Source of the DNA: Candidatus Altiarchaeales archaeon IMC4
GTDB lineage: Archaea > Altiarchaeota > Altiarchaeia > IMC4
Direction: 5' to 3'
Length of the DNA: 34,802 nt
NCBI GenBank assembly: GCA_001742785.1
Contig: MCBF01000001.1
Location: 147,335 to 182,136 of the forward strand
Shown here: piece after piece, positions 1 through 28,871 of the stretch
Position numbering within the stretch: position 1 is the stretch's first letter
Layout of the letters: every line of letters starts with the position of its first letter
Made by a program: the position numbers and the translations under genes
Notes under the pieces: generated by a model
Told to the model about the DNA's origin: nothing
Database searches by the model: none
What the model saw: only the letters and a program-made list of their open reading frames with translations

Positions 1-1357
1 AACATATCTTGAACTTGTAGAAAGTTATCGAGAGAATGGAAAAGTCAAGCACATATTCAAGAAGTATCTCGGAAAAGATATCAATGGAAAACCCATAAGA
101 CGGGTAAAGACAAGCGACATAGGCGTGGAATCAGTAAAGAGATACGGAGACGTCCTATGCGTGGATAAAATAGCACAAGACCTTGGCTTGCACGAATTCC
201 TTGACAAGAACGTCCTGTTGTTGGCATATTCTCACGTTCTGGACGATGTCAGTATGAACAATATGAAGGAGTGGGTGGAGCAGACAGAAATCCCGGAAAT
301 CCTTGAACTGGATACTATCTCAACAAAGAAACTCTATGAGGCATTGGAGAACTTAGATGAAGTAGATTTCGCGCCTCTTGAAGAACGCATATACAAGAAA
401 TTTTCCAAACACGATAAAGGCAAAACAACGGTTGTTGTGGACGTCACGGACACCTATTTCGAGGGTAAGAGGGGCTCTTCATCGAAGAAAAGAAGAGGAA
501 AGGACGGGAAATACAGAAATCTCCTGCAGATATGTCTGGCTGTGACCTTGAAGCATGGCTTTCCGGTCATGCACAGGACATATGGCGGCAACGTGTCGGG
601 TATAAGAATCTTCCAAGACATGACGACAGAGTTAATATCAAGGGGCTTTGATTCGATAATAGTTGACCGAGGGGTGCGCAGCACGGAGAATATAGAAATG
701 ATGCAGGAACTTGAAATGAAGGGCATAATGGGGGTAAAGAAAATACAGAGCATCAAGGAAGGGTTTCTCGATACCCTTGTGGGGGGAGAGATATACTGCA
801 AGGACACACGCATTGTCCTGAAAAACACCACGGTTCATGCAAAAGAATTTGATTACATGGACGGCAAGCTAATCGTGGTTTACAACCCTACACTTGAGGT
901 TCAGCAAAGGGAAAACCATTATGCAAAAGGTGGAGATGATGAAGGGGCGAAATACATCGGTTACTCTCTGATATACCACAACACAGGCATGGATGTGGCC
1001 GAGGTAGTGAGACAATACTTTGAAAAAGACATTGTGGAGCGTGCATTCAAACAGATAAAGGGTGCATTATCCTTGAGACCGATTAGGATGTGGCTGAAAA
1101 GCCATGTGAACGGGCATGTAAGAGTATGTTACCTGTCATATGCCGTGCTCAGCATGCTTGCGTATCAGATCGGGGATATTGAGTTAAGCCCGCAAGATGC
1201 ACTGAAGAAACTCAAGACGAGTTATAGGGTTCATCTTAAAGACAACGAGGGCGACTTTTCATGGTCGAGGGTGGTGAATCTTGAGAAGATTCAAGACGAT
1301 ATTCTCGAAAAGGTTGGTGTAGTGGGGGAAAAAGTAGGGAAAAGTTTGTTATTGTAA
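1..1357 (+). mobile_element. Right-hand part of an IS4-superfamily (IS1634-like) insertion sequence. The left end lies outside the window and the right terminus is not mapped.
   Basis: Contains a DDE transposase ORF that runs open to the window edge. No terminal inverted repeat can be defined because the other end is missing. Confidence 0.55.
2..1357 (+). CDS. DDE transposase, IS4 superfamily / IS1634-like (5' partial)
   Basis: The frame of the 125..1357 ORF stays open back to nt 2 (TYLELVESYRENGKVKHIFKKYLGK..., a typical IS1634 N-terminal motif). Also present: VVVDVTDTYFEG (first D), IIVDRG (second D), and YFEKDIVERAFKQIK, which fits the Y(2)R/K(3)E(6)K signature. Confidence 0.75.
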   Translation, partial: TYLELVESYRENGKVKHIFKKYLGKDINGKPIRRVKTSDIGVESVKRYGDVLCVDKIAQDLGLHEFLDKNVLLLAYSHVLDDVSMNNMKEWVEQTEIPEILELDTISTKKLYEALENLDEVDFAPLEERIYKKFSKHDKGKTTVVVDVTDTYFEGKRGSSSKKRRGKDGKYRNLLQICLAVTLKHGFPVMHRTYGGNVSGIRIFQDMTTELISRGFDSIIVDRGVRSTENIEMMQELEMKGIMGVKKIQSIKEGFLDTLVGGEIYCKDTRIVLKNTTVHAKEFDYMDGKLIVVYNPTLEVQQRENHYAKGGDDEGAKYIGYSLIYHNTGMDVAEVVRQYFEKDIVERAFKQIKGALSLRPIRMWLKSHVNGHVRVCYLSYAVLSMLAYQIGDIELSPQDALKKLKTSYRVHLKDNEGDFSWSRVVNLEKIQDDILEKVGVVGEKVGKSLLL

Positions 1358-4772: not shown

Positions 4773-4904
4773 GGCACCTGCCCAGAATTTGACAAAAAGG
4801 CAAATTCCTTTTCTTTTTCATCACACGCGTTTGCGAATTTTCGCAAACGGTGTCCCGAAACACTCTGTGTTTCGCGGAACATTTTTCTTTCCTAAAGAAA
4901 AAGG
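4773..4904 (-). repeat. Hairpin-rich palindromic element, copy A (minus orientation)
   Basis: Read on the minus strand: GGAAAGAAAAA..[GAAACAC aga GTGTTTC] GGGACACC [GTTTGCGA aaat TCGCAAAC] GCGTGTGA TG AAAAAGAAAAGG. On the plus strand there is also the hairpin TTTTTCTTT-cct-AAAGAAAAA (4882-4902) and an extra hairpin GAATTTG...CAAATTC (4785-4807) next to GGCACC. Confidence 0.7.
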
Positions 4905-4906
4905 TT

Positions 4907-4918
4907 GATTTATAAATA
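4907..4918 (+). promoter_or_regulatory. Candidate TATA box for the rpoH operon
   Basis: GATTTATAAATA lies about 45-55 nt upstream of the rpoH start. A second TATA-like CTATAAATC is at 4932-4940. Confidence 0.35.
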
Positions 4919-4962
4919 ACTTAGACCTAATCTATAAATCTTCTTTTTTCTGAAGTATACAT

Positions 4963-5202
4963 TTGGAGGCCAAATTGTTAGACAACATACTTATCCCCAA
5001 GCACGAAAAGTTGAGCGCCAAGGAAACGGAGGCAGTGTTAAAAAAGTATAAGATAACGACTGTAGAACTGCCGAAGATACTGAAAACCGACCCGGCTCTC
5101 TCTGAGATGAAGGTGAATGCAGGGGATGTCATAAAGATAACCCGCAAAAGCCAGACCGCCGGAGAATCTTTCTATTTTAGGGTTGTGATAGAGGGCAAAT
5201 AA
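4963..5202 (+). CDS. rpoH: DNA-directed RNA polymerase subunit H (Rpo5)
   Basis: LIPKHEKLSAKE...ITRKSQTAGESFYFRVV is typical RpoH. There is no ATG. The start is TTG at 4963 or, more likely, TTG at 4975, which is preceded by GGAGG (4965-4969). The stop overlaps the rpoB'' ATG (TAATG). Confidence 0.85.
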   Translation: MEAKLLDNILIPKHEKLSAKETEAVLKKYKITTVELPKILKTDPALSEMKVNAGDVIKITRKSQTAGESFYFRVVIEGK

Positions 5203-8460: not shown

Positions 8461-8466
8461 GAATAG

Positions 8467-8589
8467 CCCTTTCTTTTTAAGAAAAAGAGAGGGTTATACT
8501 CGAAATTGCTGTGCAATTTCGGTACACCAAAACACTTTGTGTTTTGCGTGTCATCCCAAAGAAAAACAGGGCGGGTTGCGAAGCAACCC
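8467..8589 (+). repeat. Hairpin-rich palindromic element, copy B
   Basis: CCCTTTCTTTTT-aag-AAAAAGAGAGGG (8467-8493). HP1 GAAATTGC-tgt-GCAATTTC (8502-8520). GGTACACC. HP2 AAAACAC-ttt-GTGTTTT (8529-8545). GCGTGTCA TCCC AAAGAAAAA. HP3 GGGTTGC-gaa-GCAACCC (8573-8589). Confidence 0.8.
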
Positions 8590-8628
8590 ACCCGAATAAT
8601 ACGACAAACAAAATTCAAATACAAAAAG

Positions 8629-11600
8629 ATGGCGATAGTAAGGAAAAAGGTCAGGGAGATTGAATTTGCTCTGTTTTCACCAAAGCAGATAAGGGCATTG
8701 TCTGCGGGAAAAATATTCACGCCGGACACTTATGACGATGACGGCTACCCGATAGAGGGCGGCCTTATGGACCCGCATCTCGGGGTAATCGACCCGGGGA
8801 TAAGGTGCCGCACCTGCGGGGGGAGGCTCGGGGAATGCATGGGGCACTTCGGCCACATCGAGCTTACGCGGCCGGTTGTGCACGTCGGCTACGCAAAGGA
8901 GATATACAGCCTCCTGCGTGCAACCTGCAAGGGCTGCGGAAGGCTTCTTGTAACGGAAGATACGCTGCAGGGCTATGACGCGGCGAACCTGAACTCCGAA
9001 AAGTTTAACGAAATACTGGAGAAGGCCGAGAAGGTTTCGGATTCTTCGGGCAGGTGCCCTCACTGCGGGCAGCAGCAGCAGAAAATAAAGTTCGTCAGGC
9101 CGTATTCTTATCACGAGGGGGACGACACGCTTCTTGTGACCGACATACTGGAGCGCTTTGAAAAGATAAGCGAAGAAGACCTGATGTACGTCGGTTTCAA
9201 CACGAGGCCAGAGTGGATGATCATGAGCGCGATACCGGTCCTTCCGATAGTTACAAGGCCGTCGATAACCCTTGAGTCAAGCGACAGGAGCGAGGACGAC
9301 CTCACTCACAAACTCGTCGATATACTCAGGATAAACCAGCGCCTTGAGGAGAACATAAACTCCGGCGCGCCGCAGTTGATAATAGAGGACCTTTGGGACC
9401 TCCTTCAGTATCACGTTGCCACCTACTTTGACAACGGCATAACCGGCATCCCACCCGCAAGGCACCGCTCGGGCAGGCCGCTTAAGACCATAGCGCAAAG
9501 GCTTAAAGGCAAAGAGGGCAGGTTCAGGAACAACCTTTCAGGAAAGCGTGTTAACTTCTCGGCAAGAACTGTCATAAGCCCGGACCCGAACATAAGCATA
9601 AACGAGGTCGGGGTCCCGGAGGTCATAGCCGTCGAGCTCACCGTCCCGGAAGAGGCAAACAAGGATAACATAGATTCCCTGAAAGGGATGGTAAAAAACG
9701 GGCCCGGTAAGTTCCCGGGCGCACACAGCGTCATAAAAGAGGGCAAGCGGCGCAGGATCCTGGAGGAAACGAAGGACGAGGTCGCAGAAACCCTTGCAGT
9801 AGGGGACGTCGTCGAGCGCCACCTTTGCGACGGCGACATTGTCATATTCAACAGGCAGCCATCCTTGCACAGGATGTCGATGATGTGCCACACCGTAAGG
9901 GTTCTGCCGTATTCCACATTCAGGTTGAACACCGCAGTCTGCGCCCCGTATAACGCGGACTTCGACGGCGATGAGATGAACCTGCACGTCCCGCAGTCCG
10001 AGGAAGCCAAGGCCGAGGCGGAAATACTGATGAAGGTGCAGGAGAACATAATCTCCCCGCGGTTCGGTGAGCCCGTGATGGGCGGCCGCCACGACCACGT
10101 AACAGGGATGTACCTTCTTACCAAAGACGGCAGGATTTTAAGCCGCAGGGAAGCGCTCCAGCTGACCAGGAACATCGTGAACCTGCCGAAAAAGGACACG
10201 TACACCGGGAGGGATATATTTAGTGCGCTTCTGCCGAATGACCTGACTATGTCCTTTGAAGGAAAGATGGGCCCGGTGGTTATAGAAAAAGGGCAGGTCA
10301 AGTCCGGCGTTATAGCTGCAAAGGGCATGGCAGGAGAACTACTGAACGAGATATTCCTCAAGTACGGCTCGGACGCGGCAAGGCAGTACATCGACAAATC
10401 CACACGTCTTGCGATAAACTCATTCATGAAGTACGGTTTCTCAACCGGAATAGACGAAAACGACCTGAAAAAAGACGGAATAAAGGAGATCACGGATGTC
10501 CTTGATGCCGCGGAGAAGGAGGTCGACAAGCTGGTCGAACAGCACCACAAGAAAACCATGAAGGTCGTCCCCGGGAAAACATTGGACGAAAGCCTTGAGG
10601 ATTACGCCCTTATGACGCTTGGAAAAGCGAGAATGGACTCCGGAAAGATAGCCGCACGGCGCATCGGCGAGAACAGCGCGGTGATAATGGCAAAAGCGGG
10701 GGCCCGCGGAAGCCTTCTGAACCTTACCCAAATGGTCGGGTCGATCGGGCAGCAGGCGGTCAGGGGCAAGCGTATAAAGCGCGGCTACCACAACAGGACG
10801 CTGTCAAGTTTCAAGAAACACGATGTGAGCGCAAGGGCAAACGGTTTCGTCAGGTCAAGTTTCAAGAAGGGGCAGACCCCGCAGGAATACTTCTTCCACG
10901 CGATGGGCGGGAGGGAAAGCCTTGTGGATACTGCGATAAGGACGGGGCGCAGCGGTTATATGCAAAGGAGGCTCATAAACGCACTTCAGGACCTTAAGGT
11001 ATACCCCGACGAAACGGTTCGCGGGGACGGGAAGATATTGGTGCAATTCAGGTACGGGGAGGACGGAATAGACCCTGCGAAGACCGGATATATCAAAGGC
11101 GGCAGGAAGGATTACGAGAAGGCTAGGGTTGTCCCCGGAGAGGCCGTCGGAACCGTTGCTGCGCAGTCAATAGGTGAACCCGGGACACAGATGACCTTGA
11201 GGACGTTCCACTACGCGGGTGTCGTCGAGTTGAGCGTTCCGCTGGGTCTGCCGCGGCTTATAGAGATAATAGATGCCAAGCGCTCGCCGAGCAACCCGAT
11301 GATGACCATATACCTCGACAAGGAGCACATGCACGATGAAAAGAAGGCTTCCGAGCTTGCAGAAAAACTCGATGAGAAGTTCATGGAGGATGTCTGCGAA
11401 AGCACCGTCGACGCGAACAAAAAAGAGATCATAATAAAAACAAAGGACAAGGCGGCGCAGGAGGCCCTGAAGGAAATCTCCGAGGCAAGGGCGGCCAACA
11501 CGTTCGTCGTATCGGGGGAGTCGCTTCCTGAAATCAAAAGGACGCTTGGAAAGCTTATGAAGAAGAAGGTGTCCGGCGTAAAGGACATAAAAAGGACGTT

Positions 11601-12078
11601 CGTAAGGGAGCTTAACGGGGAGACCGTAATCTACACTGAGGGCTCAAACCTGAAGGCAGTATTAAAGATTAAGGGCGTTGATACCGTGCGGACGACGACA
11701 AATGACCTCTACCAGATATATGAAACGCTCGGCATAGAGGCGGTAAGAAGCGCCGTCATAAACGAGGCATCGAAGGTCCTCAAGGAAGAAAGGCTGGATG
11801 TTGACATAAGGCACATGATGCTTGTCGCAGACCAAATGACGGTTACCGGGGAGCTTCAGGCGGTCGGAAGGCACGGAATAAGCGGCTCGAAGGAGTCGAT
11901 GCTTGCAAGGGCCGCTTTCGAGGAAACCGAAAAGCACATACTCAATGCCGCTGTTACCGGAGAGGTGGACATGCTCGACGGCGTTGCAGAGAACATAATC
12001 ATAGGGCAGTCTGTCCCCGTAGGGACGGGCACCATTGACCTAGGGGTAAAACCCGGCATTATCGGCAAGGGAAAGTAA
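8629..12078 (+). CDS. rpoA: DNA-directed RNA polymerase largest subunit, with A' and A'' (Rpo1N plus Rpo1C) fused in one ORF
   Basis: Start chosen at MAIVRKKVREIEF, because the longer 8506 ORF begins inside a repeat element. The A' part has CRTCGGRLGECMGHFGH and YNADFDGDEMNLH. The A'' part (VVPGEAVGTVAAQSIGEPGTQMTLRTFHYAG...LGLPRLIEIIDAKR) follows in the same frame with no stop. Confidence 0.9.
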   Translation: MAIVRKKVREIEFALFSPKQIRALSAGKIFTPDTYDDDGYPIEGGLMDPHLGVIDPGIRCRTCGGRLGECMGHFGHIELTRPVVHVGYAKEIYSLLRATCKGCGRLLVTEDTLQGYDAANLNSEKFNEILEKAEKVSDSSGRCPHCGQQQQKIKFVRPYSYHEGDDTLLVTDILERFEKISEEDLMYVGFNTRPEWMIMSAIPVLPIVTRPSITLESSDRSEDDLTHKLVDILRINQRLEENINSGAPQLIIEDLWDLLQYHVATYFDNGITGIPPARHRSGRPLKTIAQRLKGKEGRFRNNLSGKRVNFSARTVISPDPNISINEVGVPEVIAVELTVPEEANKDNIDSLKGMVKNGPGKFPGAHSVIKEGKRRRILEETKDEVAETLAVGDVVERHLCDGDIVIFNRQPSLHRMSMMCHTVRVLPYSTFRLNTAVCAPYNADFDGDEMNLHVPQSEEAKAEAEILMKVQENIISPRFGEPVMGGRHDHVTGMYLLTKDGRILSRREALQLTRNIVNLPKKDTYTGRDIFSALLPNDLTMSFEGKMGPVVIEKGQVKSGVIAAKGMAGELLNEIFLKYGSDAARQYIDKSTRLAINSFMKYGFSTGIDENDLKKDGIKEITDVLDAAEKEVDKLVEQHHKKTMKVVPGKTLDESLEDYALMTLGKARMDSGKIAARRIGENSAVIMAKAGARGSLLNLTQMVGSIGQQAVRGKRIKRGYHNRTLSSFKKHDVSARANGFVRSSFKKGQTPQEYFFHAMGGRESLVDTAIRTGRSGYMQRRLINALQDLKVYPDETVRGDGKILVQFRYGEDGIDPAKTGYIKGGRKDYEKARVVPGEAVGTVAAQSIGEPGTQMTLRTFHYAGVVELSVPLGLPRLIEIIDAKRSPSNPMMTIYLDKEHMHDEKKASELAEKLDEKFMEDVCESTVDANKKEIIIKTKDKAAQEALKEISEARAANTFVVSGESLPEIKRTLGKLMKKKVSGVKDIKRTFVRELNGETVIYTEGSNLKAVLKIKGVDTVRTTTNDLYQIYETLGIEAVRSAVINEASKVLKEERLDVDIRHMMLVADQMTVTGELQAVGRHGISGSKESMLARAAFEETEKHILNAAVTGEVDMLDGVAENIIIGQSVPVGTGTIDLGVKPGIIGKGK

Positions 12079-12393: not shown

Positions 12394-12427
12394 ATTCGCG
12401 GTGGACGGGATAAGGATCGGCGCGAAC

Positions 12428-12490
12428 GAGACAAGAAATTTGCGGGGCAAATTTGTGTCGCGTATGAGGTATCAGATACCTCATACCGCG
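12428..12490 (-). repeat. Probable degenerate copy F of the same element (minus orientation), overlapping the nusA start
   Basis: Minus strand: [ATGAGGTAT ctg ATACCTCAT] ACGCGACAC [AAATTTG ccccg CAAATTT] CTTGTCTC. Compare the consensus HP1-GGGACACC-HP2-GCTTGTC. Confidence 0.45.
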
Positions 12491-12883
12491 ATAAAGCATA
12501 TCACACTGTTCGAGTCCATAACCGGTGCGATGGCGCGCGATTGTGTCGAGGATAACGAATCGGTCGCCTTTGTTGTCGAGCCCGGGGACATGGGGCTTGC
12601 GATAGGCAAGGGCGGTTCAAACATCCAGAGGGCGCAGCGGTCACTTGGCAGGGGGGTGTGGGTGATCGAGCATTCGAAAAATCAGGCGGATTTCGTAAGG
12701 AACATCTTCGGGCCCGCTAGGGTAAAGAACATAAAGGCTATGGATGATAAGACAGTGGTCGTCGAAATCAAACGTGGCGAACGAAGAGGAATGTTTGGCA
12801 GGAATCCAAAAAGGATTGCAATCGCAAAAAGCCTTGTAAAGAGGCACCATGGGGTCGAGGATATAATAATAAAAACGATATAA
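12464..12883 (+). CDS. nusA: Archaeal NusA-like transcription termination/antitermination protein (two KH domains)
   Basis: [27 protein letters not shown]...[19 protein letters not shown]. The ORF-track start at 12302 would overlap L30e by 92 nt. ATG 12464 gives the usual length of about 140 aa. Alternative starts GTG 12401, TTG 12440 and GTG 12455 cannot be excluded. Confidence 0.8.
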
Positions 12884-14268: not shown

Positions 14269-15492
14269 ATGGCTAAATCAAAATCAGACAAGGTTATGGA
14301 AAAGAAGGGGGTCCTGACTGCCAAGAGGGCGAAGGCCGCCGAGGATTCCAAAAAGAAAGGTATCGGGGTGAAAGAGGAAGCCGCCCATGAGGAACCCTCC
14401 GAAGAAAAAGTAAAACCGATAACCGAAAAGAAAAAGGCCAAAAAAACTTCCGAGGAAGCCGCAAAGGCACCAAAGCCCGTGGAAGCCCCTGAAGAAAAGG
14501 TCGTTGAAAGGATAATAAAAACAAGAAAGGAAAAGCCCGTCGAGAAGATAAAATTCTTCGGTGTAAAGAGGAAACTGTCGCAGGGCATTGCCCGCGTTTT
14601 CAAGATCGCGAAGGTTGCAAAGAAAAAGAAGCCGAAGTTCAACCGGCAGGAGCTCCACAGGTACAAGAAGCTCAAGGATGTGTGGAGGACGCCGAGGGGC
14701 ATCGACAGCAAGCTTGCGCGGGACAAGCGCGGCAAGGGCGCAAGGCCTAAAATCGGGTATAAAAACCCGCCGGCGGTCTCGGGGCTTGACCCGTCAGGAT
14801 TTCTGCCAATAACCATAAATAACGTTAAAGAGTTGGCAAAGGTCGACAAATCCGTCAATGCGATAGTAATAGCGGGCAGTGTCGGCAGGAAAAAGCGAAA
14901 CGACATCATAAAGGCCGCAAACGAGAAAAAGATCATCATACTTAACCCCAGAAAGGGCGAGCTTCCCGGGCAGGGCGCAAAAAGGGTGCTGATGGTCATT
15001 GCGCCGAAAAACTTCAGGGACGAGGAGTTGATAACCCCGAAAGAGGTGTTCGAATCCGCGGGTTTTAACGTCATGATAGCAGGGGTCTCAAAAACCAAGG
15101 CGGTCGGTGCGGGCAGCACTGCCGTTATACCGGATGTTGCGATAAAGGATGCAAAAGCCGAGGATTACGATGCTGTCGTTTTTATCGGAGGCCCGGGTGC
15201 AAAGGAGCACCTGTGGGACAACAAGGATGCACATGCCCTTGCAAAGGGCGGCGCAAAGGCAAAGGCGCTTGGCTCGATATGCCTCGCGGGCGTTGTGCTT
15301 GCCAGAAGCGGCGTGCTGAAAGGCAGGGAAGCGACGGTGTTCGAATCGGAGGAAACAATAAAGGAGTTTGAGTCGGCCGGGGCAGAGTACGTCAAAAAGC
15401 CGGTGGTCGTTTCGGGTAACATCATAACCGCAAACGGGCCTGAAGCGGCAAAGGCGTTCGGGGCAAAAATCGTCGATATCGTGAACAAATAA
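14269..15492 (+). CDS. rpl32e: Ribosomal protein L32e with a K/E/A-rich N-terminal extension, fused in frame to a C-terminal DJ-1/PfpI-family domain
   Basis: 407-aa uninterrupted ORF. The L32e core is KKKKPKFNRQELHRYKKLKDVWRTPRGIDSKLARDKRGKGARPKIGYKNP...GRKKRNDIIKAANEKKIIILNP. From about nt 14980 it reads KRVLMVIAPKNFRDEEL...DAVVFIGGPGA...LGSICLAGVVLARSGVLKGREAT...VVVSGNIITANGPEAA. This aligns by eye to PH1704/PfpI-like proteins, with the nucleophile-elbow Cys at 15280-15282. Confidence 0.8.
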   Translation: MAKSKSDKVMEKKGVLTAKRAKAAEDSKKKGIGVKEEAAHEEPSEEKVKPITEKKKAKKTSEEAAKAPKPVEAPEEKVVERIIKTRKEKPVEKIKFFGVKRKLSQGIARVFKIAKVAKKKKPKFNRQELHRYKKLKDVWRTPRGIDSKLARDKRGKGARPKIGYKNPPAVSGLDPSGFLPITINNVKELAKVDKSVNAIVIAGSVGRKKRNDIIKAANEKKIIILNPRKGELPGQGAKRVLMVIAPKNFRDEELITPKEVFESAGFNVMIAGVSKTKAVGAGSTAVIPDVAIKDAKAEDYDAVVFIGGPGAKEHLWDNKDAHALAKGGAKAKALGSICLAGVVLARSGVLKGREATVFESEETIKEFESAGAEYVKKPVVVSGNIITANGPEAAKAFGAKIVDIVNK

Positions 15493-15931: not shown

Positions 15932-15957
15932 GGACATCAAGATTCAATAGAATGCTC

Positions 15958-16027
15958 GAAATTGCAGAGCAATTTCGGCACACCGAATCACAAAGTGATT
16001 CGCGTGTCTCGTGGCTTTGAGAGTCAC
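15958..16027 (+). repeat. Hairpin-rich palindromic element, copy C
   Basis: HP1 GAAATTGC-aga-GCAATTTC (15958-15976). GGCACACC. HP2 GAATCAC-aaa-GTGATTC (15985-16001). GCGTGTC. HP3 GTGGCT-ttgag-AGTCAC (16011-16027). Confidence 0.8.
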
Positions 16028-16583: not shown

Positions 16584-17351
16584 ATGGCATTCAAAGGTGG
16601 AAAAAGAAGGGCCCAAAGGGAGATGACGTCCGATGAACTGGCGGCTTCCTATGAGCAGATGATCGATACGTGGGTTCCAAAGACTGCGTTGGGTACCATG
16701 GTAAAAAAGAAAGAAATAACGAGCATGGGTGCCGTGATGGCATCGGGCATTCCTATCAAAGAGGCCGAGATAGTCGAAATGCTGCTTCCAAACATGAGTG
16801 AGGAAGTAATCAACGTCGGCAGGGTCCAGCGGACAACCGACTCGGGCCGAAGGATGCGCTTTCGCGTTACCGCCGCAACAGGCAATAATAACGGATATAT
16901 CGGGATCGGAATCGCAAAGGGTAAGGAGGTCGGCCCCACCATAAGGACTGCAATTAAAAGGGCTAAGATGAATATAAAGGAGATAAAGCGCGGCTGCGGA
17001 AGCTGGGAATGCGGCTGCGGAAACCCGCACACCGTCCCGTTCGACGTGGAAGGGGATTGCGGAAGCGTGAGGGTCAAGCTGTCTCCTGCCCCGAGGGGTG
17101 TCGGCCTTATCGGCAGCGAAACCGCAAAGAAGGTGCTGACCCTGGCCGGGGTAAGCGATGCGTGGGTAAAATCAAGCGGCCGCGCAAGAACAACGCTGAA
17201 TTATGCTTATGCGGTGCTTGATGCGCTGGTTAACACGAATTACATGAAACTTAATGAAACTGACAATAAAAACCTGAGCATCGTCCGCGGTGCCACATCC
17301 AAGAAAGAACTGAAAGCAGAAGATGATACAAAAGAACAAACCGCAGGGTAA
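16584..17351 (+). CDS. rps5: 30S ribosomal protein S5 (uS5), with a short acidic/lysine-rich C-terminal tail
   Basis: 255 aa (...VQRTTDSGRRMRFRVTAATGNNNGYIGIGIAKGKEV...APRGVGLIGSETAKKVLTLAGVSD). Confidence 0.92.
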   Translation: MAFKGGKRRAQREMTSDELAASYEQMIDTWVPKTALGTMVKKKEITSMGAVMASGIPIKEAEIVEMLLPNMSEEVINVGRVQRTTDSGRRMRFRVTAATGNNNGYIGIGIAKGKEVGPTIRTAIKRAKMNIKEIKRGCGSWECGCGNPHTVPFDVEGDCGSVRVKLSPAPRGVGLIGSETAKKVLTLAGVSDAWVKSSGRARTTLNYAYAVLDALVNTNYMKLNETDNKNLSIVRGATSKKELKAEDDTKEQTAG

Positions 17352-18003
17352 ACCGGAAAAGGTTTCGGAAAAGATTCTGACGAAAGCCGGGCCGAAAGCG
17401 GCGAGCGCGCCAAAAAAAGCAGTTGTTGCGGTTGCGCCCAAAGTAGAGTCTGTTGCAAAGGTTTCGAGGCAGAATGCGGACAAGCAAAATCGCACAGCGA
17501 TTTTGGTGTCCAAAAACTCAAAGAGTTTTGCGGACAAGCGAATCGCAATAATCCGCGTCAGGGGCAGCGTCCATCTTAGAAGCGGTATAGCCGACGCCAT
17601 GAAAATGCTGAACCTGAACCGCGTCAACCACTGCGTCGTGGTGGACAACCGCCCGCAGTACATGGGTATGATAAACAAGGCCAAGGACTACATAACCTTC
17701 GGCGAGATAAACGAGGAAACCGTGGCATCGCTTATTGCAAAGCGCGGCAGGCTCCCTGGAAACGTAAGGCTCGATGACGCTTACGTGAAAAATGCCACCG
17801 GCAAAGACATCGCAGGTTTTGCAGGCGCGTTCATGAAATTCGAAAAAGAGCTGAAAGACATCCCGGACATAAGCCCTGTTTTCCGCCTCAGGCCGCCGAA
17901 AAAGGGCCACGCAAGGGGCGGCATCAAGAAGCCGTGCTCTGTCGGTGGCGCTCTTGGGAACCGAAAAGAGAAGATAAACGACCTTCTGGCAAAGATGATA
18001 TAA
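17323..18003 (+). CDS. rpl30: 50S ribosomal protein L30 (uL30 / L7e-like), with an N-terminal K/A/P-rich extension of about 70 aa
   Basis: The conserved core starts at IAIIRVRGSVHLRSGIADAMKMLNLNRVNHCVVVDNRPQYMGMINKAKDYITFGE. The only ATG is 17323, which overlaps S5 by 29 nt. Starting at the alternative GTG 17506 would remove the extension. Confidence 0.85.
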   Translation: MIQKNKPQGKPEKVSEKILTKAGPKAASAPKKAVVAVAPKVESVAKVSRQNADKQNRTAILVSKNSKSFADKRIAIIRVRGSVHLRSGIADAMKMLNLNRVNHCVVVDNRPQYMGMINKAKDYITFGEINEETVASLIAKRGRLPGNVRLDDAYVKNATGKDIAGFAGAFMKFEKELKDIPDISPVFRLRPPKKGHARGGIKKPCSVGGALGNRKEKINDLLAKMI

Positions 18004-18032: not shown

Positions 18033-18079
18033 TTCTAAACAACCCCTGCCCTGCTGATGCTTACCGTTTCTATGGTAAA
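18033..18079. repeat. 47-bp direct repeat, copy 1: a relic duplicate of the 3' end of the Ca/Na antiporter gene. Copy 2 is 18159-18205.
   Basis: TTCTAAACAACCCCTGCCCTGCTGATGCTTACCGTTTCTATGGTAAA versus TTCTAAACAACCCCTACCCTGCCGATGCTTACCGTTTCTATGGTAAA, which is 45/47 identical. The two copies bracket element E. Confidence 0.9.
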
Positions 18080-18084
18080 TAACC

Positions 18085-18161
18085 TTTTTCTTTAGAAAAG
18101 AAAAATGTTAATGAAAAAGAAAAGGAATTCACCGAATTTCCGCAGAAATTCGCGTGAATTC
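18085..18161 (+). repeat. Hairpin-rich palindromic element, copy E (short form without HP1)
   Basis: TTTTTCTTT-aga-AAAGAAAAA (18085-18105). AAAAAGAAAAGG. Outer stem GAATTCAC (18125-18132) / GTGAATTC (18154-18161), enclosing C-[GAATTTC cgca GAAATTC]-GC. Confidence 0.7.
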
Positions 18162-19150
18162 TAAACAACCCCTACCCTGCCGATGCTTACCGTTTCTATG
18201 GTAAACATTACCAGTATGAAGAGGGTATAGAGCATTATCAGCCCGATTCCCTCCCGCCACGTCAGGCCTTCTTCCGAGCCAAGGAACGTCAGGAATATGA
18301 AGCCTGCCGTAAGCATGAAAAAGGCGCTGGTTATAAAAAGCAGGAACGAGCCCCCTGATAATTCAATCGGCGCGATTAATGCGCTTACCCCCAAAACAAC
18401 GGTGGAATTCGCAACAAGGGTGCCCAAGGTATCCCCGATTGCCATGTCCCCCCTGCCCATAAAAGCCGCCCTGACTCCGAATGTGAGCTCCGGCAGGGTG
18501 GTGCCGAACGATATGAGGAAAAGGGAGATAAGTATCAGCGGCAGCCCGATTTCTGTCGAGAACTCCTTTGCGAACCGTATGATAAAATCCGCGCTCACGA
18601 AAAGGATTGCAAGGCTCGCCAGAAGGGCAAGCACGCTCCACAATAACTGGCCCACCGACACCCCGTCCCGCCCGCCGTTTTCGTTAACCTTGCTGATCTT
18701 GCGGTCTTTCGTGATTAACCACATCGAATACCATAAAAACACCGCCAGAAGTACAATGCCGTCGATGCGCTCAAGTTTGCCGTTGAGCATTAATATTATC
18801 GGAACGGCCATTATCGCAAAGATGTGCATCGTATCCCTCATGTTTATGTTGCTTCCCGCGCCGACGCGCCTTGCAAGGAGGGCGACGATCCCCATGATCA
18901 TCGTGGCGTTTGCGACGTTTGACCCGATTACGTTGCCGATTACAATCTCTGGCGTCTTCTCTATAGCCGATGCTATGCCTATAGAAAGCTCGGGGATGGA
19001 CGTTGCAAACGCTATCAGGACAAACGATATGGCAAATCCGCTCATGTTGAAAAATATAGCAATGCGGCCAATGGACTTTACCATGACGTCCGCGCTTTTT
19101 ACCAGTACCGCGCACGAAACAAGCAGAAAAAACAGGTTTTCCAGCATCAT
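18161..19150 (-). CDS. Ca2+/Na+ antiporter (YrbG / CaCA family)
   Basis: Two alpha-repeats, GNVIGSNVANA and GDTLGTLVANSTVVLG, and multiple TM helices. Start placed at MMLENLFF, where its ATG overlaps the pyrB stop (TGATG). The ORF-track start at 19177 would overlap pyrB by 28 nt. Confidence 0.85.
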   Translation of the reverse strand: MMLENLFFLLVSCAVLVKSADVMVKSIGRIAIFFNMSGFAISFVLIAFATSIPELSIGIASAIEKTPEIVIGNVIGSNVANATMIMGIVALLARRVGAGSNINMRDTMHIFAIMAVPIILMLNGKLERIDGIVLLAVFLWYSMWLITKDRKISKVNENGGRDGVSVGQLLWSVLALLASLAILFVSADFIIRFAKEFSTEIGLPLILISLFLISFGTTLPELTFGVRAAFMGRGDMAIGDTLGTLVANSTVVLGVSALIAPIELSGGSFLLFITSAFFMLTAGFIFLTFLGSEEGLTWREGIGLIMLYTLFILVMFTIETVSIGRVGVV

Positions 19151-20172: not shown

Positions 20173-20886
20173 ATGAAAAAAATAGCCTTGGTGAGGGAAC
20201 TTGAAAAGTATCCTGTGTTTACCCTCGCTACCTTGCGGAGGATAATAAAAAAAGACAGGAATTACGCCAAACTGGTTATCCACAGGTTGAAGGACGAAGG
20301 GCTTGTTTTAAAAATAGAGAGAAACAGATATACCGTCCATAAGGACCCGATACTCGTGGCTTCCAACATAGTATGGCCATCATACCTGTCGTTCTGGACC
20401 GCGCTTAGATATCATAGTCTGACAGAGCAACTGCCTCAAAACATTTTTGTCATAACGCCGAGGACAAGAAAAAACAGGGATGTCGAATTCATGGGCACGA
20501 AGATATCCTTCGTAAAGGTCGGTCCGAAGTACTTTTTCGGGTTCGCGAAAGAACCGTGCCGCAACTTCACTATTTTGGTTGCACGCCCCGAAAAGGCATT
20601 GGTCGATTCGGCCCTCTTCAGGAAAATATCGTTTTCTGAGATATCAGAAATAGTAAGGGAAAACCTTGATAGAATCAGCCCTGAACTCATAGTGCAGTAC
20701 TGCCTGAAAACCAAAAACAACGCGCTGATAAAGAGGTTCGGGTTTTTGCTCGAGGCCCTCGGAGCAGATTTTCCTGAAAAGGCAGATATAAATCCGAATT
20801 ACATACCATTGGATTACGCCATGCCAAAGGAGGGAAAGAAAAACAAAAAATGGAGGATTATTGAAAACATCGAAATTGCAAAGTAA
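20173..20886 (+). CDS. abiEi: AbiEi-like antitoxin / transcriptional regulator (COG5340-type wHTH)
   Basis: 237 aa with an N-terminal winged-helix pattern (VFTLATLRRIIKKDRNYAKLVIHRLKDEGLVLKIERNRYTV). It lies 2 nt upstream of an AbiEii-type gene. Confidence 0.7.
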   Translation: MKKIALVRELEKYPVFTLATLRRIIKKDRNYAKLVIHRLKDEGLVLKIERNRYTVHKDPILVASNIVWPSYLSFWTALRYHSLTEQLPQNIFVITPRTRKNRDVEFMGTKISFVKVGPKYFFGFAKEPCRNFTILVARPEKALVDSALFRKISFSEISEIVRENLDRISPELIVQYCLKTKNNALIKRFGFLLEALGADFPEKADINPNYIPLDYAMPKEGKKNKKWRIIENIEIAK

Positions 20887-20888
20887 AA

Positions 20889-21647
20889 ATGTTGAACTAC
20901 GATGAACTTGCAGATGCTGCAAGAATGAAGCGGCTGTCATTGGTGAACGCCGAAAAAGACTACCTTCAGGACGTAGTGCTTTTGAGCATTTATTCCCATG
21001 TCGGGGATGAACTTGTATTCAAGGGCGGTACGTGCCTTTACAAGGTGTTCGGGCTGAACAGGTTCTCCGAGGATTTGGACTTCACACTTGCAGGAAAGGT
21101 CGGTGTGGATGATCTGGCAGATAAGATCGTACGCGACATCGGCCTCCTCAACATGAAAGGGGCGGTAAAGGAAACAAAAAAGTACGCAAACGAGATAAAC
21201 GTGAGGATGATTTTTAACGGGCCCCTTTACAATGGCGGTAGGGAAACCCAATGCTTCATCCCCCTTAACATAAGTCTCAGGGAGAAGCCGGTCTATGGTG
21301 CGAAAAGGGAAACCATAAAGTCAATGTACACGGAGATACCTGATTTCGATGTGTTTGCTATGCACGAGGAAGAGATATTAGCAGAAAAGGTGAGGGCGGT
21401 CATGACGCGAAACAAGCCGCGGGACGTCTATGATTTGTGGTTTTTGTTAAAGCGCGGCATGACCATTAACCGGGAGGCGGTAAACAGGAAACTTAAGCCG
21501 TACGACCTTGCCTTTGACACCGAAAAACTGCTTTTGGAAATCAAAAGGAAAAGGCAGTTGTGGAATATGGATCTGAGAAATCTGGTAATCGGAAAACTTC
21601 CGGATTTCGACGAGGTGGTGGAGCAGATTGAGGGAGGATTATACTGA
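20889..21647 (+). CDS. abiEii: AbiEii/AbiGii-family nucleotidyltransferase toxin (DUF1814)
   Basis: 252 aa with the diagnostic FKGGTCLYKVFGLNRFSEDLDFT motif. Confidence 0.8.
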   Translation: MLNYDELADAARMKRLSLVNAEKDYLQDVVLLSIYSHVGDELVFKGGTCLYKVFGLNRFSEDLDFTLAGKVGVDDLADKIVRDIGLLNMKGAVKETKKYANEINVRMIFNGPLYNGGRETQCFIPLNISLREKPVYGAKRETIKSMYTEIPDFDVFAMHEEEILAEKVRAVMTRNKPRDVYDLWFLLKRGMTINREAVNRKLKPYDLAFDTEKLLLEIKRKRQLWNMDLRNLVIGKLPDFDEVVEQIEGGLY

Positions 21648-28679: not shown

Positions 28680-28683
28680 ATAG

Positions 28684-28843
28684 CCCTTTTCTTTCCCGCG
28701 TAATTGCGGCGGCAATTACGGGGCACCATAATCGTGTTCGATTATGCGTGTCCAAAAGAAAAGTGCTATCCTCGTGAATCGGAGATTCACGGGACACCAT
28801 TTTCGATAAAATCGAAAATGCTTGTCATCCCAAAAGAAAAGGG
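28684..28843 (+). repeat. Hairpin-rich palindromic element, tandem double copy D1+D2 bounded by 11-bp inverted termini
   Basis: Termini: CCCTTTTCTTT (28684-28694) / AAAGAAAAGGG (28833-28843). D1: [CGTAATTGC ggcg GCAATTACG] GGGCACC [ATAATCG tgtt CGATTAT] GCGTGTCC AAAAGAAAAG. D2: [CGTGAATC gga GATTCACG] GGACACC [ATTTTCGAT aaa ATCGAAAAT] GCTTGTCA TCCC AAAAGAAAAGGG. Confidence 0.8.
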
Positions 28844-28871
28844 ATGTGCCTTATAAGACAACAAAAATAAG

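What the first reader, a model, noticed from the sequence alone, without database searches (positions are those of the whole stretch)
8461..8628. Family of hairpin-rich palindromic elements with conserved linkers and covarying stems (exemplar: rpoB'/rpoA spacer)
Six intergenic loci (seven units) share one architecture: purine/pyrimidine box (AAAGAAAAAG / CTTTTTCTTT, often a local hairpin), hairpin HP1, GGNCACC, hairpin HP2, GCGTGTC, purine box.

The loci are 4773-4904 (minus), 8467-8589, 12428-12490 (minus, degenerate), 15958-16027, 18085-18161 and 28684-28843 (two tandem units).

The linkers are nearly invariant, but each stem has a different sequence while staying perfectly complementary.
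- HP2 stems: AAAACAC/GTGTTTT, GAATCAC/GTGATTC, ATAATCG/CGATTAT, ATTTTCGAT/ATCGAAAAT, GTTTGCGA/TCGCAAAC, GAATTTC/GAAATTC.
- HP1 stems: GAAATTGC/GCAATTTC (twice), CGTAATTGC/GCAATTACG, CGTGAATC/GATTCACG, GAAACAC/GTGTTTC.
- The CAC...GTG of the linkers can itself pair around HP2, extending to 8 bp (GAATTCAC/GTGAATTC) in copy E.

Compensatory variation of this kind indicates selection on structure rather than sequence. I do not recognise the element as any described archaeal RNA or MITE family.

The 168-nt gap it creates between rpoB' and rpoA is unusual, because these genes are normally adjacent or overlapping. Possible roles are a REP/MITE-like mobile DNA element, an RNA processing or stability element, or an oligo-T-based attenuator. 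The sequence alone does not decide between these.
Basis: seen in the sequence. Interest (0 to 1): 0.8.

Follow-up and report, generated by a model that had tools for sequence, protein, structure and literature searches.

The report
Hairpin-pair selfish repeats in Altiarchaeum
The rpoB'/rpoA spacer holds one copy of an abundant family of tiny double-hairpin DNA repeats in the subsurface archaeon Candidatus Altiarchaeum, which fill gene spacers and have also inserted in frame into at least three conserved genes, much like the palindromic elements of Rickettsia.

Summary
The window comes from Ca. Altiarchaeum (NCBI name 'Altiarchaeales archaeon IMC4').

It holds 7 loci of a repeat whose core (52-60 nt) is two perfect hairpins. 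Each hairpin is a 3-bp basal helix, a 1-nt bulge, a C-G pair and a 7-10-bp variable stem.

- **Covariation:** 13 of 14 stem positions covary and there is no G-U pair.
- **More copies:** a second, independent 15.8-kb region of the same genome holds 5 more loci.
- **Specificity:** 1.43 Mb from 83 loci of other archaea holds none, and Rfam has no match.

Locus 12431-12490 is not intergenic: it is an in-frame 20-aa insertion in the NusA-like gene. A missed unit (17476-17529) is an in-frame 18-aa insertion in L30, and it is absent in two strains of the same population. A third in-frame insert sits in ScpB.

Relatives keep the same operon with a 1-10-nt rpoB'/rpoA junction, so their sites are empty.

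Best reading: non-autonomous selfish palindromic DNA of the REP/MITE/RPE kind. The mobilising enzyme is unknown. A published census already ranks this genome as the most MITE-dense archaeon, but I found no description of the elements. I rate it a new variant of a known kind.

The parts
4773..4904 (-). Unit U1, in the divergent promoter region upstream of rpoH. It has a T/A-box hairpin (4882-4902), a core HP1-GGACACC-HP2-GCGTGTG (4822-4874) and an A-box (4807-4820).
   Evidence: R2 scores 42.7 bits on the minus strand.
8463..8568 (+). Unit U2 in the rpoB'/rpoA spacer (the exemplar). It has the T/A-box hairpin HP0 (8463-8497, starting ATAGCCCTTT 2 nt after the rpoB' stop), a core (8501-8552) and an A-box (8556-8567).
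   Evidence: R2 scores 42.4 bits. Relatives have 1-10 nt at this junction.
8569..8593 (+). A GC-rich hairpin (GGGCGGGTTGC-gaa-GCAACCCaCCC) in the same spacer. It is not a family member.
12431..12490 (-). Unit U8, a degenerate core of 60 nt. It is an in-frame 20-aa insertion ([20 protein letters not shown]) in the NusA-like KH gene 12401-12883.
   Evidence: Protein alignment A6 with three Altiarchaeota orthologues. The DNA fold has z = -7.5. R1 scores only 12.9 bits and R2 gives no hit.
15957..16008 (+). Unit U3, a core only, in the L19e/L18 spacer.
   Evidence: R2 scores 43.5 bits. The two genes overlap or lie 3 nt apart in relatives.
17476..17529 (-). Unit U4, a core of 54 nt. It is an in-frame 18-aa insertion in the N-terminal extension of L30 (ORF 17323-18003). 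It is absent in strains L001 and L003, and L002 has Ns at this site.
   Evidence: R2 scores 39.0 bits on the minus strand.
18080..18161 (+). Partial, rearranged unit U5. It has a T/A-box hairpin (18085-18105), an A-box (18110-18125) and one long HP2-type hairpin (18124-18161). It is bracketed by 47-nt direct repeats at 18033-18079 and 18159-18205.
   Evidence: (family D3; z = -6.7). R1 scores 14.3 bits for the HP2 half.
28680..28769 (+). Unit U6, a complete element closed by a 15-nt terminal inverted repeat (ATAGCcCTTTTCTTT / AAAGAAAAGtGCTAT). Its core is 28699-28752. It starts directly after the stop codon of the KH-domain gene.
   Evidence: R2 scores 42.0 bits.
28771..28846 (+). Unit U7, in tandem with U6. 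Its core is 28773-28826 and it has an A-box. The stretch 28792-28843 is identical over 52 nt to a copy at L102 ~9100-9150.
   Evidence: R2 scores 44.2 bits.

Best explanation
This is a high-copy family of short, non-coding, non-autonomous palindromic DNA repeats. It is selfish or mobile DNA of the REP/BIME, MITE and RPE kind, specific to this Ca. Altiarchaeum lineage.

Anatomy (shown):
- The unit that is copied is a 52-60-nt core of two directly abutting hairpins.
- Each hairpin has a 3-bp basal helix, one bulged nucleotide, a C-G pair and a 7-10-bp stem whose sequence differs from copy to copy.
- The bulge lies on the 5' side in HP1 and on the 3' side in HP2. The core therefore looks like two copies of one bulged hairpin in inverted orientation.
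- Intergenic copies are often framed by a pyrimidine box and a purine box (CCCTTTTCTTT / AAAGAAAAGGG) that act as terminal inverted repeats or fold on their own. Units combine into mosaics.

Mechanism (inferred, not shown):
- The hairpins extrude from single-stranded or supercoiled DNA.
- A structure-specific enzyme supplied in trans recognises them through shape, bulge and basal helix. Its identity is unknown.
- The enzyme copies or moves the core to new sites.

What survives:
- copies in spacers, often right behind stop codons, where the T-rich boxes could also serve as archaeal terminators;
- inside genes, only copies that are a multiple of 3 nt and free of stop codons. All three seen are read antisense, in the frame that translates the central linker as V-S-[R/K].

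Why the stems stay perfectly Watson-Crick (inferred): only foldable copies propagate, or one arm is corrected against the other within the strand, or both.
For: - **Multi-copy and genome-wide.** There are 7 loci in the window and 5 more in an independent 15.8-kb region of the same organism, reached through its SecY. That is about 12 loci in 50.6 kb. A census reports 146 MITEs/Mb for Ca. A. hamiconexum, the highest among archaea (PMC11602168).
- **Lineage-specific.** R2 scores 35.7-47.8 bits on 11 cores. These were the training units, so the scores follow by construction. The best score in 1.43 Mb from 83 loci of other archaea, including 9 Altiarchaeota, is 22.8 bits.
- **Empty sites.** Relatives share the order rpoH-B''-B'-A-L30e-NusA-S12-S8-L6-L32e-L19e-L18-S5-L30 with compact junctions.
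- **In-frame insertions in conserved genes.** NusA gains 20 aa, L30 gains 18 aa and ScpB gains 19 aa and has a split Pfam match. The inserts are 60, 54 and 57 nt. All share one orientation and frame (FVSR, LVSK, RVSR).
- **Polymorphism.** U4 is absent in L001 and L003, which are otherwise about 99.7% identical to the window.
- **Assembly breaks.** Contigs L087 and L088 begin exactly at the GGACACC of U7. The following 52 nt recur verbatim in L102.
- **Both orientations occur**, including antisense to host genes.
- **DNA-like pairing.** No wobble pair occurs in 154 cells. Of 37 double changes, 23 are transversion-type (my count). Both strands fold equally well. Bacterial REPs, which are thought to act as RNA, show frequent G-T pairing (PMC3733652).
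- **No known RNA family** matches.
Against: - No consistent target-site duplication was found.
- No transposase could be tied to the elements.
- The IS4-like DDE transposase at the window start shows no matching ends in the part that is visible.
- The single presence/absence case lies in a 115-nt tract with 10 extra substitutions. It may be an allele imported by recombination rather than a recent jump.
- All other copies are identical among the sampled strains, so current activity is not shown.
- The genome-wide copy number is extrapolated, not counted.
- Placement just after stop codons, together with the oligo-T boxes, is also what a selected terminator or stability element would show.
- The normalised alignment used for covariation was built from stems I picked as complementary. 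The percentage paired is therefore partly circular; the double-sided changes are not.
Confidence: 0.75

Rival explanations
1. The units are cis-acting RNA elements selected for function: 3'-end stabilisers, processing sites, or oligo-T terminators or attenuators within operons. Compensatory evolution would then maintain the hairpins at the RNA level.
For: - U2 and U6 start 0-2 nt after stop codons with a T-rich tract.
- Five of the window units are co-oriented with the + strand operons.
- The predicted RNA folds are very stable, with z from -7.7 to -8.7.
- Covariation is strong.
- Bacterial REPs and MITEs are often co-opted in this way (PMC3733652).
Against: - Three copies sit inside coding sequences of conserved genes, antisense to the mRNA.
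- U1 lies upstream of promoters, and another copy lies between divergent genes in L102.
- No G-U pair occurs in 154 cells, and the double changes are rich in transversions.
- Relatives with the same operon do without the elements.
- One copy is dispensable in sister strains.
- This reading is compatible with secondary co-option of some copies, but not as the origin of the family.
Confidence: 0.12
2. The hairpins are not transposed. They are generated and expanded in place by template switching or slippage at quasi-palindromes. Arrays would grow locally, and the arms would be complementary because one arm is copied from the other.
For: - All pairs are Watson-Crick, and many changes are transversion-type.
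- Mosaic arrays share hairpins between neighbouring units at L102 6903-7008 and 5303-5429.
- U4 is flanked by a 10-nt direct repeat, GCTTGTCCGC.
- A 47-nt duplication surrounds U5.
Against: - The same basal-helix, bulge and linker signature, and even an identical 52-nt segment, occur at unlinked loci. This requires copying between sites.
- The stems of the coding inserts show no relation to their flanking target sequence.
Confidence: 0.07
3. The units are binding or loading sites on DNA for a host protein, for example a nucleoid, SMC/ScpB or replication factor. They would be kept for chromosome organisation, as was proposed for some bacterial REP/BIME elements.
For: - Density is high and fairly even.
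- The basal helix and bulge are conserved while the stem varies. That pattern suits protein recognition of shape.
- Copies lie next to the scpB and smc genes in L102. This may be coincidence.
Against: - Nothing links the units to any protein.
- Other Altiarchaeota lack them.
- Insertions inside essential coding sequences are hard to explain by such a role.
Confidence: 0.04

Closest known systems
Rickettsia palindromic elements (RPE)
   Same: - Short palindromic repeats found in spacers and, in frame, inside unrelated housekeeping genes, where they add a peptide.
- Each element is read in a preferred frame.
- No associated transposase is known (review PMC10969869).
   Different: - RPEs are about 100-150 bp and bacterial (Rickettsia), and form sequence-defined families.
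- Here the coding inserts are 54-60 nt, the host is an archaeon, and the stems differ in nearly every copy.
- No sequence relation is expected, and none was tested.
REP / BIME / REPIN elements of bacteria (mobilised by RAYT tyrosine transposases)
   Same: - 20-40-nt hairpins with a bulge or mismatch, in very high copy.
- Mostly located after genes.
- Paired in inverted orientation and combined into mosaics.
- Occasionally intragenic (PMC3733652; PMC3116915).
   Different: - REPs carry a GTAG or CGTC tag and have conserved stem sequences within a family, with frequent G-T pairs.
- These units have no such tag, have hypervariable stems and have no wobble pairs.
- No RAYT gene could be looked for in this genome.
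- I found no archaeal REP family in the papers searched.
MITEs of archaea (Sulfolobus, Halobacterium, Haloquadratum; MITE-Tracker census)
   Same: - Small, non-coding and multi-copy.
- Composite copies have 11-15-nt terminal inverted repeats (U6; the U6-U7 pair).
- The census ranks Ca. A. hamiconexum highest among archaea, at 146 MITEs/Mb (PMC11602168).
   Different: - Classical MITEs are IS deletion derivatives with a TIR and a fixed target duplication.
- The core units here, including all coding inserts, have no TIR and no clear duplication.
- No parent IS was seen.
Hairpin ends of IS200/IS605 elements and integron attC sites (single-strand DNA substrates recognised by shape and extrahelical bases)
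   Same: - The structure is conserved, with bulged bases and short conserved flanks, while the stem sequence is free to vary.
- There are no TIRs.
- This is a resemblance recalled from my own knowledge. It is a lead, not a test.
   Different: - There is no GTTRRRY/RYYYAAC box and no cassette context, so this is not attC.
- No tnpA or tnpB lies nearby.
- Target specificity is not established.
Pneumococcal BOX and Neisseria Correia elements
   Same: A modular build (here box, hairpin modules, box) with variable numbers of internal modules, placed in spacers of operons.
   Different: The sequences and hosts are unrelated. BOX modules are conserved in sequence.

Membership tests
MITE (classical, IS-derived) | Terminal inverted repeats | tested here: inconclusive
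   Composite intergenic copies have them: 15 nt in U6, and 11 nt across U6-U7. Core-only copies (U3, U4, U8, the ScpB insert) have none.
MITE (classical, IS-derived) | Target-site duplication of fixed length | tested here: not met
   No common duplication flanks the three coding inserts. The 10-nt repeat at U4 overlaps the element's own 3' motif. The 47-nt repeat at U5 is unique to that locus.
MITE (classical, IS-derived) | Parent IS with the same ends in the genome | tested here: inconclusive
   The only IS in view is DDE_Tnp_1 at window 1-1357. It runs off the window, and its visible end shows no similarity. The rest of the genome could not be reached.
REP / REPIN (RAYT-associated) | GTAG or CGTC tetranucleotide tag at the foot of the hairpin | tested here: not met
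   The feet are NNN-(T/G)-CG...CG-NNN and CAC-C...G-C-GTG. There is no GTAG or CGTC tag.
REP / REPIN (RAYT-associated) | High copy number, mainly extragenic, with paired inverted units | tested here: met
   There are about 12 loci in 50.6 kb. Nine are extragenic and three intragenic. The two hairpins of a core have mirrored bulges.
REP / REPIN (RAYT-associated) | A RAYT (HUH Y1) gene flanked by units | not testable with these tools
   Only about 50 kb of the genome was accessible, and none lies in it.
RPE-type intragenic palindromic elements | In-frame, stop-free insertion in conserved protein genes, inferred from shorter orthologues | tested here: met
   NusA (A6), L30 (A7 and the strain comparison) and ScpB (A11).
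RPE-type intragenic palindromic elements | Membership of the Rickettsia RPE sequence families | not tested
   No RPE sequences were at hand. The host, the size (54-60 against about 100-150 nt) and the composition make membership implausible.
Any Rfam RNA family | Score at or above the family gathering threshold | tested here: not met
   No hit reached gathering. The best sub-threshold hits were L20_leader (25.2 against 58.7 bits) and mir-9428. L102 likewise gave nothing.
Integron attC | R''/R' boxes (RYYYAAC...GTTRRRY) around one long imperfect hairpin, in a cassette array | tested here: not met
   The sequences read lack these boxes. The neighbours are core housekeeping genes.
Archaeal bulge-helix-bulge intron | Two 3-nt bulges separated by a 4-bp helix formed by the exon-intron junctions | tested here: not met
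   The junction sequences of the NusA and ScpB inserts cannot pair in this way. The inserts are multiples of 3 nt and stop-free, as expected if they are translated.

The most novel reading that the evidence does not exclude
These units may be the first archaeal counterpart of structure-recognised single-strand DNA elements (REP/RAYT-, IS200/IS605- or attC-like logic), with an as yet unknown mobilising enzyme. Recognition would depend only on a bulged basal helix, which would leave the upper stem free to drift or be rewritten. At roughly 200 copies per Mb, and with about one copy in four inside genes, the family would have remodelled many core proteins of Ca. Altiarchaeum. It would then be an archaeal parallel to Rickettsia on a larger scale.
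Probability: 0.25. Interest if true: 0.8.

Novelty: new variant of a known kind. Interest (0 to 1): 0.58.

Why it matters
Small palindromic repeats are well studied in bacteria but hardly at all in archaea. In-frame colonisation of essential genes is textbook only for Rickettsia.

Here an uncultivated archaeon that dominates some subsurface ecosystems shows a dense family that does both:
- it splits tight, ancient operon junctions such as rpoB'/rpoA and L19e/L18;
- it adds 18-20-residue peptides to NusA, L30 and ScpB.

The family matters in several ways:
- It is a natural system for asking how hairpin DNA is mobilised in archaea.
- It lets one ask how proteins tolerate such inserts.
- It bears on whether oligo-T-bearing repeats rewire archaeal transcription units.
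- In practice, it explains contig breaks and gene-start miscalls in Altiarchaeum assemblies.
- It offers strain markers for population studies.

Tried and rejected
- **Rfam.** Gathering and E-value modes on the window and on L102 gave nothing relevant.
- **Metagenome scans.** Two exact-pattern scans of JGI metagenome contigs were run. The U2/U3 HP1 28-mer gave 0 hits. The 3'-end motif gave 7 stretches, none a family member. The organism seems absent from that collection.
- **Viral scans.** Two scans of viral contigs gave only chance matches.
- **Walking the genome through the IS transposase.** Its NCBI protein (P0121) is single-copy and not in the contig index.
- **Family outside this species.** It is biased to their stems and scores both strands. 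It picked out double hairpins in Altiarchaeota L006 (in that organism's own 226-nt rpoB'/rpoA spacer) and in L007. The linker-aware model R2 does not recover them. The RpoB' tree puts L006 beside L007, whose junction is empty. I therefore treat them as independent or only distantly related, not as proof of the family outside this species.
- **Stems copied from the target.** I rejected the idea that the variable stems are copied from the insertion target. The flanks of the coding inserts show no relation to the arms.
- **BHB intron, attC and CRISPR readings.** All rejected; see the membership tests.
- **Structure of NusA.** A single-sequence AlphaFold model gave mean pLDDT 54, with residues 1-64 below 50. 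It is uninformative about the insert.
- **Bacterial-type scan.** The promoter and terminator scan gave no enrichment, and it is not suited to archaea.
- **Region upstream of the HNH ORF in L102.** It is not significantly structured (z = -1.8) and holds no tRNA.

Full report
**Source and setting**

The window matches metagenome contigs JAEMOI/JAEMOK/JAEMOL at about 99.4-99.9% identity, and Logan and ENA assemblies of ERR628383 likewise. These accessions are assemblies of Ca. Altiarchaeum-dominated subsurface sites (PMC8324899). NCBI names the identical RpoB' 'Candidatus Altiarchaeales archaeon IMC4'. From my own knowledge this is the Mühlbacher Schwefelquelle population of Ca. Altiarchaeum hamiconexum. 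The next closest RpoB' in 5.8 billion proteins is only 74% identical.

The genes around the finding are rpoH, rpoB'', rpoB', rpoA (one ORF of 1149 aa), L30e, a NusA-like KH protein, S12, S8, L6, L32e, L19e, L18, S5 and L30. Three other Altiarchaeota keep the same order, and their junctions are a few nucleotides long or overlap.

Yes.
- A loose linker pattern is enriched: 8 hits against 1.84 expected, with no shuffle of 100 reaching 8.
- Perfect hairpins are four times more frequent than in shuffles (27 against 6.3 +/- 2.3), and 19 of them lie in the element loci.
- Directly adjacent hairpin pairs occur 9 times in the window and at most 3 times in any of 83 loci from other archaea.
- The spacer folds far better than shuffles on either strand: RNA + strand z = -7.7, DNA - strand z = -7.9.
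- The tandem U6/U7 gives z = -8.7, and the single cores give z from -4.7 to -7.5.

**Refined anatomy**

Reading all cores in register shows that the 'invariant linkers' are parts of the hairpins.
- HP1 is NNN-(T or G bulge)-C-G-[stem]-loop-[stem]-C-G-N'N'N'.
- HP2 is CAC-C-[stem]-loop-[stem]-G-(C bulge)-GTG.
- 'GGNCACC' is therefore the 3' strand of HP1's basal helix, then the 5' strand of HP2's basal helix, then the closing C.
- Its variable bases covary with the 5' flank of HP1: TCC/GGA, TAC/GTA, TGC/GCA, CCC/GGG, CGC/GCG. This holds in 10 of 12 units.
- The bulge is 5' in HP1 and 3' in HP2, so a core looks like two bulged hairpins in inverted orientation.

Intergenic copies add a pyrimidine box and a purine box. 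In U6 the boxes close the whole element as a 15-nt terminal inverted repeat. In U1, U2, U5 and L102 ~8996-9021 they fold on themselves. Units combine into mosaics: the tandem U6-U7, a head-to-head pair sharing a central hairpin at L102 6903-7008, and five hairpins at L102 5303-5429.

**Covariation**

MAFFT could not align stems of different lengths. I therefore normalised each unit to the basal 7 bp of each arm plus 3 loop bases, and dropped one extra A from the linker of two units.

On 11 units, 98.7% of 154 cells pair, 13 of 14 pairs change on both sides, 37 cells are double changes and none is one-sided. The shuffled and slid controls are far lower (six window units alone).

By my count on that table, 23 of the 37 double changes are transversion-type (A-U to U-A, C-G to G-C and similar). 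Such changes cannot pass through a wobble intermediate. The percentage paired is partly circular, because I chose the stems as complementary. The diversity of pair types and the absence of G-U are not circular.

**Models and distribution**

- R1, built from U2 and U3, found all units but scored both strands.
- R2, built from the 11 normalised units, resolves orientation. Canonical cores score 35.7-47.8 bits and the opposite strand scores at most 16.2 bits. These hits are the training units, so they match by construction.
- Over 1,429,153 nt from 83 loci of other archaea, including nine Altiarchaeota loci, the best R2 score is 22.8 bits.
- Rfam has nothing.

**More copies elsewhere in the genome**

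I found this organism's SecY (P0286), which in this organism is not linked to the L30 operon. I then fetched its contigs (L102-L105).

This independent 15.8-kb region holds five more loci:
- a half unit after SecY;
- a five-hairpin array;
- a core inside scpB;
- a four-hairpin mosaic that fills the spacer upstream of scpB;
- a box-framed four-hairpin element between ftsZ and smc.

The last 52 nt of that final element are identical to window 28792-28843. Contigs L087 and L088 begin exactly at that point. The repeat therefore breaks assemblies.

Together this makes about 12 loci in 50.6 kb. This is in line with a published MITE-Tracker census, which gives Ca. A. hamiconexum the highest MITE density among 8220 archaeal genomes, 146 per Mb, but does not describe the elements (PMC11602168). 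Its supplements were not available.

**Coding insertions**

- **NusA-like gene (12401-12883).** It aligns with three Altiarchaeota orthologues except for 20 extra residues between the conserved M-x-x-IRLGAE[DE] and IKxIxLFES. The extra 60 nt are unit U8.
- **L30.** The ORF carries an N-terminal extension. The empty allele has no alternative ATG, GTG or TTG start between the extension and the conserved core. Unit U4 is an 18-codon insert there.
- **ScpB (in L102).** It has 19 extra residues between conserved blocks and a split Pfam match.

The inserts are 60, 54 and 57 nt and free of stop codons. All are antisense to the canonical element orientation. All are read in the frame that turns the central linker into V-S-[R/K]: FVSR, LVSK, RVSR. 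The naive chance of two further inserts sharing the first one's strand and frame is about 0.03. It is less striking if only some frames are open, and this frame is open in most units.

**Polymorphism**

U4 is missing in L001 and L003, which are otherwise about 99.7% identical to the window. L002 has Ns across the site. The indel sits in a 115-nt tract (17421-17535) with 10 further substitutions. The two alleles may therefore have been exchanged by recombination with a diverged lineage, rather than differing by a fresh jump. All other units are identical among the strains, apart from one loop substitution in U8 in L003.

**Empty sites and the rpoB'/rpoA gap**

Seven Altiarchaeota relatives have 1-10 nt between rpoB' and rpoA. 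Across 67 archaeal loci the median is about 20 nt, and 4 are at least 121 nt.

One of those four, L006, has its own hairpin-rich 226-nt spacer. It groups with L007, whose junction is empty, and R2 does not recognise its hairpins. I read this as an independent fill of a permissive site.

**What it is**

The combination of features matches selfish palindromic repeats of the REP/BIME, MITE and RPE kinds:
- high copy number and lineage specificity;
- both orientations;
- spacers and in-frame coding sites;
- a presence/absence allele;
- exact repeats at unlinked loci;
- mosaic build;
- no RNA-family match.

It differs from each of these kinds. It lacks the GTAG/CGTC tag, the conserved stems and the G-T pairs of REPs (PMC3733652). 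Its cores lack the TIR and target duplication of MITEs. Its coding inserts are less than half the size of RPEs, and its host is an archaeon.

A conserved bulged foot with a free upper stem is the logic of single-strand DNA substrates such as IS200/IS605 ends or attC sites. That comparison comes from my own knowledge and is only a lead. The mobilising enzyme is unknown. The one nearby candidate is a 76-aa HNH_3 ORF in a gene-free island flanked by units, which is a single association.

Some copies may have been co-opted. The T-rich boxes directly behind stop codons are plausible archaeal terminators, and purine boxes lie just upstream of TATA-like sequences at rpoH and hypC. This is inference only.

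**Verdict**

I rate it a new variant of a known kind, of moderate to good interest.

Noticed in passing
window 18033-18079 and 18159-18205: A 47-nt direct repeat (96% identical here, 100% in strain L003) duplicates the 3' end of the Na/Ca-exchanger gene. It brackets the 79 nt that hold unit U5. This is also the point where the L30-L15-SecY linkage conserved in relatives is broken in this organism. The origin of so long a duplication is unexplained.
   Followed up: partly
window 8629-12078: rpoA is a single ORF of 1149 aa carrying all five Rpb1 domains. The same holds in relative L090 (1153 aa). Relatives L091 and L092 have the usual split A'/A'' genes (824+358 and 842+356 aa).
   Followed up: no
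window 14269-15492: Ribosomal protein L32e is fused to a DJ-1/PfpI domain (407 aa). In three Altiarchaeota relatives it is 215-234 aa.
   Followed up: no
window 16584-17351 and 17323-17535: Relative to its relatives, S5 has a C-terminal extension of about 36 aa, and L30 has a K/A/P-rich N-terminal extension of about 50 aa. The two ORFs overlap by 29 nt. Whether these extensions derive from decayed repeat units was not tested.
   Followed up: partly
window 1-1357: An IS4-like DDE_Tnp_1 transposase ORF runs off the window start. Contig L001 starts at window position 1292, inside its 3' end. The NCBI copy (MSIBF_00725) appears to be single-copy. No link to the hairpin units was found.
   Followed up: partly
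L102 4433-5437 (ORF 4787-5017): A 1-kb island without called genes lies after SecY. It holds an uncalled 76-aa HNH_3 endonuclease ORF (E = 3.7e-9) and is flanked by hairpin units. Two assemblies (L104 and L105) end 159 nt after SecY. It may be a separate mobile element or a candidate mobilising enzyme.
   Followed up: partly
L102 9031-9201: The called SMC ORF starts inside a repeat element, and its SMC_N domain begins only at residue 58. Gene starts next to these repeats are therefore likely to be miscalled in the annotations.
   Followed up: partly
L006 4579-4806 and L007 5955-6002: Two other Altiarchaeota MAGs carry their own perfect double hairpins: L006 in its own rpoB'/rpoA spacer, and L007 in a divergent intergenic region. 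Their stems are similar but their linkers differ. They may be distant cousins of the family or independent inventions.
   Followed up: partly
window 8569-8593: A GC-rich 11-bp hairpin, unlike the A/T-rich family stems, lies between unit U2 and the rpoA start. On the minus strand it is followed by a T run.
   Followed up: no
window 20889-21647 and 1518-1766: There is an AbiEii-type toxin gene with an upstream ORF of unknown family (20173-20886). A small ParE-like toxin ORF lies among the housekeeping genes.
   Followed up: no
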